From Balamuthia mandrillaris (taxonomy: Eukaryota), in the NCBI GenBank assembly GCA_031835245.2, contig JAVKOQ020000057.1:124001-188000 (forward strand): DNA of 64,000 bases. The letters run 5' to 3'. Numbering within the stretch: position 1 is the first letter of the stretch; the number at the start of each line of letters is the position of its first letter. The notes under the pieces are model-generated. The model saw only the letters and a list, made by a program, of their open reading frames with translations. It had not been told where the DNA came from and ran no database searches. Position numbers and translations under genes: made by a program. Of the stretch, positions 2,316 to 50,999 are shown one piece after another.

Positions 2316-3801
2316 ATGAGCGGAGACGCAACCACCACCATCTGCCATCTGCCCCATGAGCTGCTCTGCTACATCCTCAACGAGCTGCTCCCGGAGGGTT
2401 TGGCTGGCCTTGTGGCCCAAGTGTGCCGTCGCTGGCGAGAGTGCGTCCCGCCCGACAAAAGAAACCTCTTGGCCGCCAGAACCATTCTCGCCCTCACCAG
2501 CACCATCAAGTAGTTCGAAGGCGACGAACAAGAAAACGCTCTTCTCTGGAAGTGGGCAACGGAACGTGGTTTGTTGAGGACCTCGAAGAAGCTCTTCGTG
2601 ATCGCTGCCGCCACAGGTCGCCTGGACGTCCTCCATGCCCTTACCCCGAGCCATCAACCCTGGTATCAGTTGGAACCCCCTCGCTACACAGCGGCAACAA
2701 AGGAGGCAGCCAAAGGGGGTCACCTTCACGTCCTGCAGTGGCTCTTCCAACGCGCGCAAAGCTGGCAACGAACAGGCTTTGTCAAGGATACATGTCACGC
2801 TGCGGCCATCGCTGGCCACACCCACATCCTCAAATGGGTGGCCCACACGCCCCTGCTCCATGGGCCTGGTGACGCACTAAGCGGCCAAATCGTTGAAGCA
2901 GCGGCTCTTGGAGGCCAGTTGGAAACACTCAAGTGGATGAAGGAAGAAATAGATAAAGAGGCAGCCAAAGAAGAAACAGGAAGAGAGCAACTTGAATATT
3001 ATACTGAATGTGTGTTTCGTGCAGCTGCTGCCGGAGGACACCTTCACTTGCTTCGTTGGGTAGTAACGGAGCTAGGCTTTGCTCCCAAAGGAGATCCATA
3101 CATCTACTACCGGGCAGCCAGCGGAGGAAGACTAGATGTGCTACAGTGGTTGCACGACGACTTGGGCATTCACTATGACGGTTCCAAGTATGCTTGCTAC
3201 CAGGCTGCCACAGCGGGTCACTTGGACGCTTTGCGATGGCTGCTGGTGCGTGGGGGTAAGTTGGATGAGACTCTGTCTGCCTTCGCTGCCAAAGCAGGCC
3301 ATCTGCGTGTACTACAATGGCTGTTCGAGCAGGGCTGCCCCTGGAATGACTCTGCGGTAGGAGACGTGGTAGGTAGAGGACACACTGACGTGCTACGTTG
3401 GTTGTACCAGCGACAAGGAGGAGAGGCCCTGGCTAAAGCCGACAGCTCCGCCAGCCTTTGTACAAGGGCTGCAAGCAATGGCCAGCTGGAGACTCTCAAG
3501 TTCCTTCGTCTGGAGGTACAGCCGCAGTGTGCGTGGGGCGTCGAGACCAGCAGAGCTGTCGTTGCGTGTCCTCGAGTTGCCAACAAAAAAAGCCATGGCT
3601 TTGCTCCGTTGGATGCGTGAGGAGGCCGACCCCCCTTGTCCTTGGGATGAGAGGACCAGCCAGGAGGCGGTCCAAAAAGAAAGGTGGAAGCTGTTACGGT
3701 GGATGTGTTGGGAGGCACAGCCACCATGTCCGGCCAGCCAGAGGACTTTGCGAAGACTGCGTATTCATGAGAAAGAGAAGGGTGCTGCAAGGAATGTGTG
3801 A
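2316..3801 (+). pseudogene. F-box plus giant-virus-type ankyrin-repeat gene with an in-frame stop and a frameshift
   Basis: F-box (ICHLPHELLCYIL...VCRRWREC) is in the same frame as AAxxGHLxxLxW / GCPW repeats. TAG at 2511-2513 interrupts it, and a frameshift at the A-run near 3585 leads to the PCPWDERTSQEAV tail. No introns. Confidence 0.75.
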
Positions 3802-42767: not shown

Positions 42768-44529
42768 TCAAAAGTTGTTCGTGTTGTGCACCATTCGTGA
42801 CATCTGCAACACTTGATCCAGGTCGACACGGTAATACGTATCCGTGAGGTCACGGTTTCCGCCACCAAAGCCTACGAGCAAATGGTGCACCGACTGAAAG
42901 CCAAGAAAAAGAAAAAGACAAAGACGAGCGACAGAACAGAAGGACAAGCAGAAGGAGAAGGAAGCGGAAGCAAAGCAAGTGCATTCCTTCTCCAGGAGAG
43001 GGTTTGGCTGGTCCGGCCTCCTCGCCGCTGCCTCTTCCAAGAAAGACCACAGTGGCGGCCCCACCTCCTTTTGGGTATGCAGCGACAACTGGTCTTCAGA
43101 AGGGGCGTACGTTGTTCCATCATCCGCATACAAGCAGGTATTGGCCATCCCAAGAATACCGATACATAAGATAGACCACATGAACCTCCGAAGGAAAGAC
43201 TTTGGGGTGGAGGAATGGAGGCCAAGCAGGCCAAAGCCCTTTGCAAGGCACTGGCAGATAATAAGGAGAAGCCCACCTCGTTCTCCTCTCCCGAGGGCAT
43301 CGCCAGCTTTGGGGACGAGCTGTTGGTGTGTTGGGACCACAACGACGCCAACAACAAGAAGAAGAACAAGAAGAACAAGAAGAACAAGAACGAGAAGCAT
43401 TGGAACTATTTCAAAAACATCGTACCATAGAAAAAAATAAGACCTTTCTGGTTGTGAGGCTTACGTCTCCTTTCTCCAGGTCCGCGATCATTTTTTGCAG
43501 CAAACAAGACCAGTAGCGGGAGAGCAGCTTGATGGGTTTGTTTGTCTCGCAGATTGTCTTTTGTTTAAAACAATAAGAAAGGCGAGGTGGCATGAGCAGG
43601 GACAAATCATCACCACATTGGCGGAGAGAGTGTGCGTTTTTTTTTTGCTTTATTTTTCTTGTTTACAATATGCAAAGAAGTGGGGAAGAACAGCGGCTGG
43701 GCTGGCGGGAGCGGAAATACCATTTGGGTGAGCTGCAGGAGCAGGACAAAGCGCTGGGAGGACGTGACCGGTCTGGGTTTGCAGGCACGCTTGTGTGGCC
43801 CTCTCCGCACTGCAATGCGGACGGAAACTGTGTGAGTGATTCACAATCGGGAGTCAACCAGCAGGCATACGTACTTCAGGGCTTGTCTGAATTCTTCCAA
43901 AGACTCTGCAGTGACCACAGGGCGAGGGGTGGGGGCGACTAAGGCCCTAGTTAGCACCTCCATTCGCGCATCAAGTGCGTCCAGTTTTGCGTTGGTCCCT
44001 TCTACCGCTGCGTCCAGTTTTACGTTGGTCCCTTCTACCGCTGCCGTTAGCACGTCAAGCTTGCGCTGAATGTCTTGCAAAAGCTGGGAAGGATGGAATG
44101 AGTTGTTGGGCCGAGCAAGTAAACACAACACTGAAAAACTTACGTCGTTTGTGGTCAAGACGTTCTCCACGGCGTCTGCTATGCTGTCGAAAGGGAATCG
44201 GCTGACCTCGTCCGCTACTTCATCCAAGGGAAACTCGGCCACCGTTCTAGCCAATTTCCCCAGCTTTTTGATCCCTAAGGCCGCTCGCTTGTTCTTGTCT
44301 TCAGAGGTCTGCCCCTCGTCTACTTCTTTCTCCTTCTCCCCCTCGCTACGAGGTCGCTTTCTTCCTCCTGCTGTTGTTGGCGCTCTTGCCCCTCCTTCGA
44401 CAGAAAGAAATCAACAAGCCGTTGGACGATCTCCGGCTTGTTCCCTTCGTGGGAGATGCCCACCGCCAGGCACAGCGGCCTCAAAAATTCCAAGGTGGCA
44501 GCACGGAGCTTCGCTTCCGGTATGATCAT
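42768..44529 (-). pseudogene. SAP-domain, NLS and coiled-coil gene (multi-exon) with a frameshift; possibly transposon-associated
   Basis: KLRAATLEFLRPLCLAVGISHEGNKPEIVQRL fits the SAP pattern. A frame change near 44400 is needed to reach GGRKRPR and downstream exons, which have GTAAG...CAG introns; ends MVHNTNNF*. Confidence 0.55.
43976..44041. repeat. 33-bp tandem duplication encoding AVEGTN(V/A)KLDA twice
   Basis: tgcgtccagttttRcgttggtcccttctaccgc occurs twice. Confidence 0.9.
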
Positions 44530-45869
44530 CCTACTACTGTTTTTTTTTTGGCTGCAGAATAAAAAGGCTCGGGCCTTGTTTTAGGAGAGGAAGTCGTTAC
44601 GGGGCCTGCTCGGATCACAAGGATCAGTCGTGTCGTCTTGACAAAAAGGTCGAGCGTTCAGGAACGCTTGATCTACGTGTGTTTTACTGCTTTTGCTGAC
44701 ATAGCCCAGATCAAAAGTGCTGAGGAGGTGCACAAACTGAGAAGTGTTTTATTGAGCTGCAGCTTTTGTGCTCTCAGACTGCAGAGGACGGCGAGTGGGC
44801 TGCAACTTAGCAAAAGAAGCTGTGAAGGGACTAAAGCGGCGCTACGCAGCAAAATTTGGTGGGGAAAAAAAAGGACAACACTTTGCCTTCTCTGCTATTT
44901 TAGCTGGTGGCAATTTCTGTCAACTGCTTTGCTTTAGTGAAGGGATGTGTAATGGAACCTAGGAAGCCATTCTCCCACTTGCTTTATGCTATAGCTTCCT
45001 GGGTTCCACTACACGTCCCTTCTTCCTCCTCACATTGCTTTTGTACTGCCTCTATCCAACAGTTTACATCTACTATAAATCTGTTTCCATTCAACTTGAT
45101 TTTTGGTGTAGGCCTTGGTGAGGAGCTTGGTGAAGAGAAGGTGGCGTTGCTTTCTTTCTGGAGCTGCCTTTTTCACCATGTCTTGGCTTCTTGCATAATT
45201 TTTTCCAAAAATTACACTTTTGTGATATATCACAAAAGACAAATACATGCAGCTGCATTAGTTGACAGAAATTTTTTTCATAAAAACAAGAACAAAAAAT
45301 AAGAAGTGTGTAAAAAGAAAACAATAACAGGAGATGTACCTTGCTGGAAAGTGCATGAACCGTAGTCCTCCATATTTTTGTGCCCATGCATCATGCCTTG
45401 TTCTTCCTTATGGCCGCTGCTTCCAAGGAAAAAATTCATCAAGTCTAAACAGACATGAGAAGAGCTACCAGTTCCACTTCTGATCCAAAGATTGCAGCAC
45501 TTGTGTATCCATTCCACCAGAACAGAGGACTGGGAAAAAACATGATGACCCAACGTTTGTCTGACTGGTCATAGTAGTTGTAATACAGATTGGAGGGAGG
45601 AAGAAGGAATCATGAGAGAGAAGAGCATACCAAATGCCTGACTGGTTGCAAGTATTGTAATGAGAACACAGAGAAAAACCAAATGAAAGAAGAGCTTGAG
45701 CAGGCAAGAACAGAGAAGTTGATCCAGAGATTAGCCAAACATGAATAGAGATTACAAAGGCTTGTTTTGAAAGAGCAAGCAACAATGATCTTCTAAACAG
45801 TGTCAAGAAGCTCTTTGATGCCTATCATATCCTCTACACTTTCTTCAAAACATAGTTGGATCAATGAAT

Positions 45870-47325
45870 AAGCAGGAAAACACTTGAACTAGAGTTAAGA
45901 AGCGAACTTAATGCAATCAACAAAGTGGCAAAAAACGGAATGAAGGTAATGATAAATGACAAGGAAGTGAAAGCAAACCTCTTTTTGACAGTGGACCTTA
46001 AAGCATTGAAGGAGATAAGTGGAATGAACTCCTTTTATGCAAGTAACATGAAGTATTGCTGCTTTTGGTGTTTTGCAAAAAGAAAACATATCAGACAACA
46101 AGTAGTATTCAAAGAAAAAATACAGTTTTGAACAGCAGCAAAAGCAATAAGTCTCTTACCAAACATAAACACAAAAAACTTCAACAAAAGTGGGCAGAGA
46201 TAATAGAAGAAGAAAAACAACATCCAGGCCTCATGATTTAGAAATCAATTGAGCATCTAAAAGCATCAACACAAAAAACATCAGCAAAAAAGCATTGTGG
46301 AATAATGAACAAACCTCTACTTTTCTTTTTACCTGAATAAGTTATTCCTTGTCTTCTTCACTTGGTGATGGGAATTGTGTGAAAGATGTTGAAGAAAACC
46401 ATGGAACTGTTATACCACTCTCCCATAATACCTATCCCTATCTCTCCTTGTATATATATCTCTTTCTTTCATTTTATTAAAGGTCTTTTCCCTACACCTA
46501 TCGAGTTGGTGTCCATTAGGTTGTTTCCCTACTAACCTTATTACAGAACTTGTTGATGAGAAAGATGAAGAACTGCAACAGCTTCTCGTCATAGTATTTG
46601 AAAGCATGGACATACATTTATCTGACAAAGAAGGAATGAATATGAAAGAACAGATAAAGGACAGTCGTTTGAACCAAACTGAGTACTTACACATTTTAGA
46701 GAATTATTAAAAGCTACTTAATTGTTTTGGAAAGTTAGAAGAAGAAGAAGAAGAAGAAGAACAAGAACAAGAAGAACAAGAAAAAGAAGAAGACAAACAA
46801 CAACAGCAGCAAAAGGAAAAAGAAAAGGAACAGGAAGAGAAAAAGATGAAAGAAGAAATACCTGATGAAGAAAGTGACTTTCACATTTTTGAGAGCTTGG
46901 TTCCATTGGTTCTTTGTTTTAACAATGGTGATGGCAATGGTGATGGCAATGGTGATGGTGATGGCAATGGTGATGGTGATGATGATGGCAATGGTGATGG
47001 CAACAGTGACAGTAACAGCAATGATAAAGAGAAAGAGGAAGAGAAAGAAAAGGAGAAGAAAAATAGGAAAAAAGTTAGTCTTAAAGAAAAGCAACAGCAG
47101 GAGCATTCACAATCACAACAAGATTCTACACTAGAAGCATTGAGAAAGATACGGAAAGCATGGCAAATGTTTCATCATACATGTGTATTGGCACTGCAAG
47201 AGAATATTGATATTTCAAGTGATGAATGGGAGAAAGAAGCAGCTCAATTCAAATATGCCTTCTTCAAAGCATGGAGCCCAGAGGACTGGACTACTTATAT
47301 GCATATTTTTGTTACACACAACAGG
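45870..47325 (+). mobile_element. Degenerate RAG1/Transib/Chapaev-type DDE transposase core
   Basis: Colinear motifs: SRKTLELEL; LFLTVDLKALKEISGM...KYCCFWC; GIMNKPL...VIPCLLHLVMGIV; SRLNQTEY; W...WTTYMHIFVTH. Multiple stop codons, truncated at both ends. Confidence 0.72.
46922..47022. repeat. (GATGGCAATGGT)n-like repeat encoding GDGN inside the transposase relic
   Basis: Directly visible. Confidence 0.85.
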
Positions 47326-48329
47326 CCGTCTGCTTCCCTCTTCGAATTCTGCTTTGCTATTCTTTTTTTTTAACAGTGTCGACATGAGAAGCAGTCATTT
47401 ACCAAAGATAGGTAATTGTCTACAAATACGGCTGGATTTTTCTCCTGCCACGTAAGCTTTTCCTCCGCAGTATGACTCTAGATAAAAGAGTGAGCAGGGA
47501 AAGGCGGAGAGGAAACGGAACGAAATGACTACTCCTGCACCCTCTGGCTCCGCCAGCTCAACCGCGAACCAACCCTCCCCTGTTGGCGGCCTCACCGGGT
47601 GGCTTTCGACCCTGTGGCAATTGATCTATCCACCAGCTCAACACAGAATGCTATTGGAACAGCTTGAACGAGCATCCCAGGAGGACGAACAGAGATGGAG
47701 ACAACGGGTAGCAGCCCAGGGATCGGGGCTCTTCCGCTCAGAAAAGTGATGTGATTGGGTCGAAGACGGATGCTCCCTCCTTCGGTTTCTTCACCTCAAA
47801 CATATGTTATCGGTGAAAGTCACAGATAAAAAAAAACAGGAGGTTGAGTTTTTATTTCCGTTCAAAGAACCGCTGAGATTGGACTCGTCAGTAAGCAAAA
47901 CAACACATGTCCTTATCCCTCGAAGCTCGAAGCCACTACTGCATTGGCCGGTCGTTCAGCTAGCTTCACGGGCGAGCCTCGGGTTCCCCCTCATAACTCA
48001 TTTCCGGTAGTCGCTAAACCGTTGAACGATGGCGAATGTGGCAAGTTGGTACCAAAAAATTGCCAAAAAACGCCAAATGCCTGGCGCTCCGTGGCATCAG
48101 CGCCACATAGACAAAAAGTTCATCGCGCAATACGTGGCTTGGCACCGGCGGTGACGTGTGTGGCTTGGTGGAGCTTTGTCCAGGTTTTCGCAGTAGCAGA
48201 AGAAAGAGCCATTTGGGAAAACAAAACAAAACAGACAGACAGACGGAACTGGTGCGAGAAGGAGGGAGGAACAGCGGTGGTGGTCGGCACTCTTGTATGT
48301 AAATAGTGTCCAACACTGAGGAAAGCGTG

Positions 48330-49005
48330 ATGCAAAACGGCAAGCGGCCCCGCCACCGCCCGCTGGGGAGCAGCGAGAGCGACGAGGAGAATCTTAACTT
48401 GGAGTGCTACCCCGAGGGGGAAGAGGAGGAGGAAGAGGAGGAAGCGAAAAAGCAGACCACGACGATCGCAGGGGGAGGTTGCGCCTTCCTGTCCTTCATT
48501 CATGGAGGCTCTAAGCAGGCGCAACAAGCGCTGCGGCTGATGGAAACGGGAACGCTGGACGTTAACGCCAGAGATGAAGCTGGTTGGACACTCCTTCATG
48601 TATGCGCTTTCACGTCTCCTTTTTCTGCTTGAGATTTCAGATTTTCGCTTACGCTGAAACCATAACAGTACGCCAGTTATCAAAAGGATCATGCCTTCGT
48701 TGCCAGCCTGTTGGGGTTAGGAGCTGACCCTAACCTTCGCGACTCTGCTGGATACACTCCACTCATGTATAACTTCTCTCCTTCGTTGTCTCTCTGTTTC
48801 CATGTTTGTGTCTGTCTCTCTCTCTCTGTCTCTCTCTCTCTCTCTCTGTCTCTCTGTCTCTCTGTCTCTCTGTCTCTCTGCTCTCTCTGTCTCTCTGTCT
48901 CTCTGTCTCTCTGTCTCTCTGTCTCTCTGTCTCTCTGTCTCTCTGTCTCTCTCTCTGTCTCTCTGTCTCTCTGTCTCTCTGTCTCTCTGTCTCTCTGTCT
49001 CTCTG

Positions 49006-49073
<68 letters not shown>

Positions 49074-49194
49074 GTCTCTGTCTCTGTCTCTGTCTCTGTC
49101 TCTGTCTCTGTCTCTGTCTCTGTCTCTGTCTCTGTCTCTGTCTCTGTCTCTGTCTCTGTCTCTGTCTCTGTCTCTGTCTCTGTCTCTGTCTCTG

Positions 49195-49230
<36 letters not shown>

Positions 49231-50999
49231 TCTGTCTCTCTCGCTGTCTCTCTCTCTCTGTTGTTGTGACGCAATTCTTGCTTACAATGAATGTTAGGTG
49301 GGCAGCCCAAAACAAAGATAAGAAAACAACATCATTATTGATCGCTCATAACGCAAACCCCTATACTGAGGACTTTTTCGGTTGCAGTCCCATTCAAGTT
49401 GTGCCGAAGGACTCTGCTCTCCATCGCTTGATGATGCGCAGCTCCTTTACTCCACCAACAAAGCAAAGTTCTCTCTCATCTCGCTCTTCTTCACTCTCAT
49501 CGCCTTCTTCTCCCACGTTTTCTTCCTCGCTTTCCCGTTCTTCTTCATCTCCCACTCTTTTGTCTCTCAATGCATCTTCTTCCTCCGCTTCTTCGTCTTC
49601 TTCAAAAACTACACCCCCTGCTGTACCGTCTCCCTCTAGCCTCAAGCAAATCCGAAAACACACCCAAAACTTGTGGAAACTGACGAAAGGCACAATGACC
49701 ACCCAAATCATGATCCTGTTCTTTCAGTTTTGTCTCTGTCTCCTGGTGGAGATCTTCCAGGACGACCTAAAGCGTGCTCTGCAATGGGCGCTCTTCCTGG
49801 CTCCCTTTCGCTTCATCTTCTCTTTTGTCTACAACACCATCTCCAATTTTATACACTTTATCGTATATTTTTTAGGTTGTTACAATCTGGCCGAATATCT
49901 TCACGCCTTGCTTCACGACTCTGTTCTCCCTCTACTCTCCTCTACTTTTACTCGCATGCTGCAAGCCTCTGTCTTTCTTCTCCGGCCACTCTTCATCGTG
50001 TTGAAAGGGCTCATCTTTCCGCTTATCCGCTTCTTGGCTGGTCAACTCGCCTTCTTACTTCGTCCCATCTACCTCCTGATTGCTCCTCGCCTACAGGCAG
50101 CCCTCCAAGTACTCTTTGGCTACCTCTACCTCCTCAGCAAGCCCATTTGGAATGCTCTCTGGAATGTGCTGCAAGCGCAGCTCGAACCGAAGAACATTCT
50201 CCGCAAGTTGGCCTTTCCTTTCGTCATCGTCTTCTCCAAAGTGCAGAGTTATCTCCTCCCAACTAACTTGCTTTATGCGGTGGAGCGGCGCGTGGCCTCC
50301 TTTCTCGGCTTGGAGCCGGATGAGGACCGCATGTCCCGAGAGGAGACCAACAAAAACACCGCGCTCGCCCTCATTATCTCCTTCTCCTTCCTATGTGAGG
50401 CCTTCATTCTTCTCTTTGGCTACATTTGGAAACTTCTCTTCATCGCTCTCCATTTTTATCTCCTATACTTTCCTTTCGATCCGTTTTTACAAACCTCACC
50501 AACTTCTTCTACCACATCTTCTTTACTTGCGAACACAACTACAATTATGACGAAAGAGGAGTGGTGGCACCCGGTTGCAGCCTTGTTGTGGAATTATGCA
50601 CAGGACGAGGATCTGTTCACGTGGAAAGTGGATTTGGATCACCATCACTTTGGCATTTTGGGACTGGTCTTTGCCATTGGGTTGGTCATGGCTTTGGCCT
50701 TTCTCTATGCCGTTGTTTGGCTGTGCTTCATCCTGTTGCAGTCTGTCTGGAGGATGCTGTCTTCTTGTTGTGCTATTGTGCTACGACGAGGAGGAACCAC
50801 GAATACACAAGGAGGCAGAGCAACAACAACGTCAACAAACCGAAGGGACGGAGAAGAAGAGGAACGAGAAGGAGAAGCGGAAGCAGAAGAAAGAAGAAGA
50901 GAGAAAGAGAAAGCTGATGAGCTGATATCAAGCAATGGACTACACCGCGAAGCACGCGGATTGTTTTGGCGACGAGGAGGCAAGAAGCGGAATACTTAA
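48330..50999 (+). CDS. Ankyrin-repeat protein with C-terminal multi-TM region
   Basis: DVNARDEAGWTLLH, GADPNLRDSAGYTPLM, WAAQN...ANPYTEDFFGCSPI, then a Ser-rich linker and several hydrophobic helices. Confidence 0.82.
48810..49260. repeat. Compound (CT)n/(CTCTGT)n/(CTCTCTGT)n microsatellite in an intron
   Basis: Pyrimidine-rich array of about 450 bp. Confidence 0.97.

What the first reader, a model, noticed from the sequence alone, without database searches (positions are those of the whole stretch)
44900..47320. Sharply bounded CpG-depleted, TpG/CpA-rich island over the transposon: footprint of methylation-driven silencing
Seen: by eye only about a dozen CpGs in roughly 2.4 kb, while flanking genes and promoters are CpG-rich. 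Several stops are TGA where Arg (CGA) fits, e.g. MGIV*KMLKK at about 46380. Inference: 5mCpG deamination or a RIP-like process is targeted to TEs, implying a TE-directed genome-defence system in this lineage.
Basis: partly seen in the sequence, partly recalled or inferred. Interest (0 to 1): 0.75.

Follow-up and report, generated by a model that had tools for sequence, protein, structure and literature searches.

The report
CpG-eroded RAG1-like transposon in brain amoeba
A broken jumping gene of the amoeba Balamuthia, whose intact relatives are predicted to fold like the antibody-shuffling enzyme RAG1, has lost most of its CG pairs through C-to-T changes, likely the scar of the DNA-methylation defence already described in the related Acanthamoeba.

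Summary
The depletion is real: 11 CpG in 2,421 bp, o/e 0.13, against 0.85 in AT-matched windows. The host is Balamuthia mandrillaris, by a named cluster member. The island holds a broken DDE transposase (45355-47322) with a 138-bp LTR-like insert. Its family has 25 predicted proteins in this species; one models as RAG1/Transib (Z 23). Copy comparisons show the CpG bias. In the island, 15 of 33 listed transitions are at CpG, including four TG/CA doublets. Arginine columns vary 6-fold more often in two sister subfamilies. Fungal CpA-type RIP is not supported. Repeat-directed CpG methylation is published for Acanthamoeba, so the defence system is a new member of a known kind. The RAG1-fold family, which I found in no paper on amoebozoans, is the fresher lead.

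The parts
44848..47324 (.). CpG-depleted zone (11 CpG)
   Evidence: change-point fit; profile
42832..47504 (.). Strain-variable repeat cluster that contains the island; absent from one allele in run X11; 44599-47509 absent from one allele in run X2
   Evidence: joints 42831>47513 (36 letters between) and 44598>47510; right edge near 47504 inferred from those 36 letters
42832..44598 (.). Multi-copy sequence of unknown kind, CpG-rich here (o/e 0.77); other copies have lost CpGs
   Evidence: no family found
44599..45193 (.). High-copy repeat piece(s); CpG o/e 0.81 in 44599-44850 and 0.12 in 44851-45193
   Evidence: contig depth 1,100-3,300 against about 21 in X1, loose ends at 45193
44939..45022 (.). 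Hairpin, 32-nt arms, 4 mismatches, all transitions (1 CpG, 2 CpA, 1 CpT context)
   Evidence: (z -8.8); no Rfam family at gathering score
45355..47322 (+). Broken RAG1/Transib-fold transposase gene: N-terminal zinc-finger-like part, deletion near 45870 that removes the first catalytic Asp region, second Asp at 45994, CxxC, PCLLH, YxHxxxxH, cut off about 20 codons before the catalytic Glu; frameshifts and stops
   Evidence: tblastn to homologs, E to 3e-27; fold of homolog P0146; contigs of another strain run on at 45868/45875
46129..46131 (+). TGA at a conserved Arg column (7 of 9 homologs)
46380..46382 (+).
46408..46545 (.). 138-bp very high-copy insert with TG...CA ends and a 4-5 bp target duplication; likely a solo LTR
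   Evidence: joint 46403>46546 in X11, X12 and one X15 read; loose ends pile at 46408 and 46545; sequence
46729..47065 (+). In-frame low-complexity tract (Glu/Gln/Lys and Gly-Asp-Gly-Asn repeats), no CpG
47326..47504 (.). Right part of the repeat cluster; keeps CpG (7 in 187 bp, o/e 0.80)

Best explanation
The island is a broken DNA transposon of a family predicted to have the RAG1/Transib fold, and its CG pairs have been lost by C-to-T changes, likely because the amoeba methylates CpG on repeats and methyl-cytosine deaminates. Shown: the depletion, the broken transposase, the multi-copy family, and the CpG bias of differences between copies. Predicted: the fold (model of an intact relative). 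Inferred: 5mC as the cause, DNMT1/DNMT3-type enzymes as in Acanthamoeba, and silencing. The sharp edges likely mark junctions between repeat pieces with different exposure times, not the edge of repeat versus host DNA. Whether the decay happened at this locus or before the piece arrived is open.
For: (1) o/e 0.13 against 0.85 in AT-matched windows. (2) Island versus copies of another strain: of 39 listed island differences 33 are transitions and 15 of these are at CpG; 4 of 5 adjacent pairs are TG in one copy and CA in the other (0.6-1.2 expected, P 0.003-0.03). Per inferred substrate C, losses in the window copy are 11/32 at CpG against 13/270 elsewhere, odds ratio 10. Adding the 11 revealed CpG sites lifts o/e in the compared 722 bp from 0.19 to at least 0.50. 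(3) The window copy has A/T where X11 has G/C at 72 places, the reverse at 34 (P 1e-4). (4) 9 of 13 conserved Arg columns are changed in the window copy, 7 to codons one CpG transition from CGN. (5) Sister subfamilies: Arg columns variable in 20/48 against 40/618 and 12/54 against 24/677. (6) Neighbouring repeat: 10 of 14 listed C>T/G>A differences hit CpG, 20% expected, P 4e-5. (7) Acanthamoeba has DNMT1 and DNMT3 and CpG-only 5mC on repeats (PMC12344493 section 6; PMC12210455 passages).
Against: No 5mC call and no methyltransferase gene were seen (no genome held). Only 40 of 171 and 40 of 457 difference rows were shown, chosen by the tool. By the plainer null (share of T before G or A after C) the island bias is modest: 11 of 24, 26% expected, P 0.03. 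The 11/32 rate is inflated because ancestral CpG sites are recognised through the differences. Direction of change is assumed, with no outgroup. There is no mutation spectrum for single-copy host DNA as a control. CpA-context losses are 8/112 against 5/158 for CpT+CpC (P 0.16). Repeat DNA on both sides keeps host-level CpG. In Acanthamoeba DNA transposons are not enriched for 5mC overall.
Confidence: 0.8

Rival explanations
1. An active, RIP-like process mutates repeated DNA at CpG (perhaps weakly at CpA) in bursts, rather than slow passive deamination of 5mC.
For: The window copy is lopsidedly decayed (72 against 34). CpA-context changes are slightly raised (8/112 against 5/158); 2 of 4 hairpin mismatches and the Trp and Gln stops are in CpA context.
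Against: RIP indices are in the non-RIP range: TpA/ApT 0.69, (CpA+TpG)/(ApC+GpT) 1.56 (thresholds 0.89 and 1.03 recalled). His>Tyr 0 of 24 and Cys>Tyr 0 of 20 columns in the young subfamily. Many copies are 99% identical with long open frames. The 5' neighbours of the 11 lost CpGs are mixed (T 4, A 3, C 3, 1 ambiguous; read by hand), so no TpCpG rule. A roughly tenfold CpG excess is what passive deamination gives (recalled).
Confidence: 0.08
2. The low CpG is inherited: the element came from a CpG-poor donor or has AT-rich codon usage, and no local methylation is needed.
For: The island is 37% GC against 48%. The other strain's copy is also below host level (o/e about 0.40 from listed rows). 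Arg codons in the aligned segments are 12 AGR to 4 CGN.
Against: It does not explain CpG-biased differences that arose between copies inside this species, nor the TG/CA doublets. The inferred shared ancestor had o/e of at least 0.50.
Confidence: 0.07
3. CpG is hypermutable genome-wide (general methylation or mutation bias); purifying selection keeps CpG in genes, and the dead transposon shows the neutral equilibrium.
For: No single-copy control spectrum was obtained.
Against: Non-coding, AT-rich windows outside keep o/e 0.85; no other 2.4-kb stretch of the window falls below 0.61.
Confidence: 0.05

Closest known systems
Repressive 5mCpG on repeats in Acanthamoeba castellanii (PMC12344493; PMC12210455)
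   Same: Related amoebozoan; CpG context; confined to repeats and non-conserved regions while most genes are unaffected.
   Different: There methylation was measured; here only its mutational trace. There LINE and LTR elements are preferred and DNA transposons are not enriched overall; here a DNA transposon family is strongly eroded. 'depletion' did not occur in the first paper's main text and 'deamination' only in its reference list; 'deamination' did not occur in the second.
Transib transposases and RAG1-like (RAG1L) proteins (PMC9435367; PMC10629977)
   Same: Model of P0146 matches RAG1 (Z 23.2, rmsd 3.6, 449 residues), lancelet RAGL (20.7) and HzTransib (19.7), above P element (12.9) and Hermes (8.5); D299, D387, E649, CxxC and two His motifs present in the intact relative.
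   Different: 11-15% identity; no sequence-level hit to RAG1/Transib chains; N-terminal C2H2-like fingers (E 3e-4); no Cys-rich tail in P0146; TIRs, 5-bp duplication and RAG2 partner not established; host is an amoebozoan.
Fungal RIP (recalled)
   Same: Repeat-associated C-to-T transitions that create stops.
   Different: RIP removes CpA/TpG and raises TpA; here CpA/TpG are enriched and TpA/ApT is 0.69.

Membership tests
5mCpG deamination footprint on repeats | CpG depleted after composition correction, TpG/CpA raised | tested here: met
5mCpG deamination footprint on repeats | Differences between copies biased to transitions at CpG | tested here: met
   rows are a tool-chosen subset
5mCpG deamination footprint on repeats | Bias absent from single-copy host DNA | tested here: inconclusive
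   host o/e 0.76-0.85, but no host SNP spectrum
5mCpG deamination footprint on repeats | 5mC present on the element | not testable with these tools
   no modification calls available
5mCpG deamination footprint on repeats | DNMT1/3/5-type enzyme encoded in the genome | not tested
5mCpG deamination footprint on repeats | Transcriptional silence of the element | tested here: inconclusive
   one RNA run, 43 reads, flanks equally thin
Fungal RIP | CpA>TpA preference: high TpA/ApT, low (CpA+TpG)/(ApC+GpT) | tested here: not met
   0.69 and 1.56; His>Tyr 0/24, Cys>Tyr 0/20
Transib/RAG1-like transposon | RAG1-core fold with DDE triad and zinc-binding CxxC...H...H insertion | tested here: met
   for intact relative P0146; the window copy keeps only the second Asp, CxxC and both His motifs
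Transib/RAG1-like transposon | Multi-copy, dispersed family | tested here: met
   25 predicted proteins named B. mandrillaris, on contigs of many different lengths
Transib/RAG1-like transposon | TIRs starting with a CAC heptamer | tested here: inconclusive
   no CAC-type pair at this broken copy; one 12/14 inverted pair (44775/47474) is at chance level; intact copies' DNA not available
Transib/RAG1-like transposon | 5-bp target-site duplication | tested here: inconclusive
   4 of 5 match beside that candidate pair only
RAGL (RAG1L plus RAG2L) | Linked kelch-type RAG2-like gene | not testable with these tools
   this copy is cut before its 3' end; flanks of intact copies not available
Solo LTR | TG...CA ends, 4-6 bp duplication, high copy, empty site | tested here: met
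Solo LTR | Matches the LTR of a full retroelement | not tested
   internal part not identified

The most novel reading that the evidence does not exclude
Balamuthia carries a young, possibly active RAG1-like transposon lineage, new for Amoebozoa and perhaps with a RAG2-like partner, and destroys its copies by a repeat-directed hypermutation of CpG (weakly CpA): a RIP-like defence outside fungi.
Probability: 0.08. Interest if true: 0.8.

Novelty: new member of a known kind. Interest (0 to 1): 0.42.

Why it matters
It would extend repeat-directed CpG methylation from Acanthamoeba to a second amoeba lineage, a human pathogen for which four literature searches found no methylation work, and show that it acts long enough to erase CpGs and break DNA transposons. 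CpG o/e could then be used as a cheap map of repeats in this genome. The family itself matters for RAG origins: a RAG1-fold transposase with near-identical intact copies in an amoebozoan, invisible to Pfam and sequence searches, adds a deep branch between Transib and RAG1L that can be tested for end recognition and for a RAG2 partner.

Tried and rejected
No whole genome is held. Pfam gave no transposase family for the window pieces or 8 homologs; word-indexed search with the first piece found nothing among longer proteins; PDB sequence and profile searches did not reach RAG1/Transib. The top hit (P0126, a beta-helix protein) was dropped as spurious; P0132 was left out of the alignments and P0131 entered only A2. 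Expression: no RNA holder was listed; the one RNA run laid (X15, about 3 in 100 of it read) gave 43 reads, none 99% alike, with near-zero depth on the right flank too, so it says nothing on silencing. X5 covered little (16 contigs). No second copy of any piece lies in the window. 46408-46545 first looked like an intron; rejected because copies lack it as DNA and it is high-copy. A 9-bp direct repeat at 44584 and 47506 was rejected as a target duplication because the X2 joint does not fit it. Rfam: 5 weak matches, none at gathering score. Atlas: only a 0.75 hit for the left ORF 43844-44410, chance level. Earlier findings of the scan: none in 3 look-ups. One search was too loose and listed only mammalian DNMT papers. 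The script stopped half way; the rest was rerun.

Full report
1. Observation. The stretch 44900-47320 has 11 CpG in 2,421 bp, o/e 0.13, with TpG 1.43, CpA 1.30 and GpC 1.09; the whole window has 0.76, 1.08, 1.04 and 0.99. Composition does not explain it. The 23 outside 300-bp windows with GC <= 0.41 pool to o/e 0.85, and removing the insert and the low-complexity tract leaves o/e 0.15, P 5e-12. The lowest equal-sized window elsewhere is 0.61. Change points fall at 44848 and 47324.

2. Host. The window's DnaJ protein shares a 90% cluster with one other member, named Balamuthia mandrillaris. All named transposase homologs carry the same species name. No genome was held, so copies were studied through predicted proteins and through contigs of public runs.

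3. The element. A full-library search with the first piece gave 8 hits; six resemble one family, one was spurious and one weak hit was not used. Expansion gave 7 clusters, and 25 predicted proteins carry the species name (4+14+4+1+1+1). tblastn places the window's gene at 45355-47322 on the + strand in several frames, best E 3e-27. About 190 codons with the first catalytic Asp have no match; contigs of another strain leave the window at 45868 and rejoin at 45875, which points to a deletion there. The gene stops right after YMHIFVTH, about 20 codons before the catalytic Glu of intact relatives, and this is where CpG returns. A 138-bp piece at 46408-46545 has TG...CA ends and a 4-5 bp duplication, is missing from copies in X11 and X12, and has summed contig depth in the tens of thousands (no calibrated copy number). 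It is likely a solo LTR. The model of intact P0146 (mean pLDDT 74, core mostly 85-94) matches RAG1 (Foldseek E 1e-11; Z 23.2, rmsd 3.6, 449 aligned), then lancelet RAGL 20.7, HzTransib 19.7, P element 12.9, Hermes 8.5. Pfam and PDB sequence searches miss this.

4. The surroundings. The island is the inner part of a larger repeat cluster. One X11 contig joins 42831 to 47513 with 36 other letters, and one X2 contig joins 44598 to 47510. The 36 letters end like 47505-47512, so the X11 allele is likely the empty state and the X2 allele a later deletion (inference from 5 shared letters). Inside the cluster, 42832-44598 (o/e 0.77), 44599-44850 (0.81) and 47326-47512 (0.80) keep CpG, while 44851-45193 (0.12), 45194-46407 (0.13) and 47066-47325 (0.11) do not. 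The edges are therefore not the repeat/host border. The right edge is the break of the transposase; the left lies within high-copy pieces that I could not resolve.

5. Mutation spectrum. One search showed 40 of 171 difference rows; 39 lie in the island and one (47665) was dropped as outside. 33 are transitions and 15 of them are at a CpG in one copy or in the inferred ancestor. Four adjacent pairs read TG in one copy and CA in the other, the mark of one CG lost on opposite strands. Of 24 places where the window has T/A and the other copy C/G, 11 are in CpG, 8 CpA, 4 CpT, 1 CpC context. Against the share of TG/CA among T and A sites this is modest (P 0.03); per inferred substrate it is 11/32 against 13/270, though that rate is inflated by how the sites are found. 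Over 45194-48400, X11 differs at 135 places, 106 transitions, 72 with the window on the A/T side and 34 the reverse. At protein level, four copies of one sister subfamily vary at 20 of 48 Arg columns and 40 of 618 others. Fifteen sequences of another vary at 12 of 54 and 24 of 677, with His>Tyr 0 of 24 and Cys>Tyr 0 of 20 (one of the 15 is only 92% identical and may supply many variants). In the window copy 9 of 13 conserved Arg columns are changed, 7 to TGC, CAA, CAG or TGA. In the neighbouring repeat, 31 of the 40 rows shown (of 457) include 14 C>T/G>A, 10 at CpG, where the other copies lost the CpG that the window keeps. Results against: the CpA class is somewhat high (8/112 against 5/158, P 0.16), only 2 of 6 alignable stops are Arg-to-TGA, direction is assumed, and no single-copy control spectrum was available.

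6. Mechanism. Most likely (0.8): repeats are CpG-methylated, 5mC deaminates to T, and a dead copy keeps accumulating TpG/CpA, Arg losses and stops. The depletion and the bias are shown; methylation, the enzyme and silencing are inferred. One RNA run was uninformative. Rivals: RIP-like active mutation (0.08; RIP indices negative), inherited composition alone (0.07), genome-wide CpG mutability (0.05).

7. What is known. PMC12344493 (passages, section 6 in full, and a term search of the one supplementary file held) reports DNMT1 and DNMT3 and CpG-only 5mC on repeats in Acanthamoeba, with DNA transposons not enriched overall. PMC12210455 (passages) reports methylated mobile elements and viral insertions there. 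Searches for Balamuthia with transposable plus methylation, transposon plus repeat, 5mC, and DNMT listed nothing on the subject (listings only). PMC9435367 (whole text) places RAG1L and Transib in animals, fungi, plants, bacteria, a pelagophyte and unnamed 'other primitive eukaryotes'; six amoebozoan names were absent from its supplement text, but figures and picture tables there and in the methylation paper's supplement were not visible and may bear on both novelty claims. PMC10629977 (passages) gives the TIR and 5-bp duplication features and has no word beginning 'amoeb'. Two further searches listed no paper on amoebozoan Transib or RAG1L. The library lacks most subscription papers and Repbase was not searched. 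RIP thresholds and the tenfold CpG rate are recalled.

8. Verdict. The defence system is a new member of a known kind; the RAG1-fold family in an amoebozoan is the more original lead, with Transib membership met by fold but open for ends and duplication. Interest 0.42.

Noticed in passing
P0146 group (14 proteins): Several copies of the RAG1-fold transposase are 99-100% identical with full DDE triads, which suggests recent activity.
   Followed up: partly
window 44939-45022: 32-bp hairpin (z -8.8) in a high-copy repeat; only sub-threshold miRNA-precursor matches; could be a source of small RNA or an element end.
   Followed up: partly
window 46408-46545: 138-bp solo-LTR-like element of very high copy in all strains laid; read also in the RNA run from other loci.
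   Followed up: partly
P0151: A piece of this transposase family is fused in a gene model to a resolvase plus TnpB-like protein, i.e. an IS607/Fanzor-type element (label recalled) inserted in a copy.
   Followed up: no
P0130: An unnamed homolog carries a C-terminal Ulp1 (Peptidase_C48) domain.
   Followed up: no
window 42832-44598: Multi-copy, strain-variable sequence with two minus-strand ORFs (42771-43460, 43844-44410) of no known family; CpG-rich here, eroded in other copies.
   Followed up: partly
window 44775 and 47474: 12/14 inverted pair with a 4-of-5 flanking duplication; possible degenerate ends, but at chance level. An X1 contig joins 45271 to 47403, as a deleted derivative would.
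   Followed up: partly
window 48770-49260: Long CT/CTGT microsatellite tract within an ankyrin-like gene region; lowers local CpG to o/e 0.37-0.55.
   Followed up: no
window 2514-3620: Single long ORF with ankyrin repeats of the type common in giant viruses of amoebae (resemblance recalled; Pfam Ank_4 5e-22).
   Followed up: no
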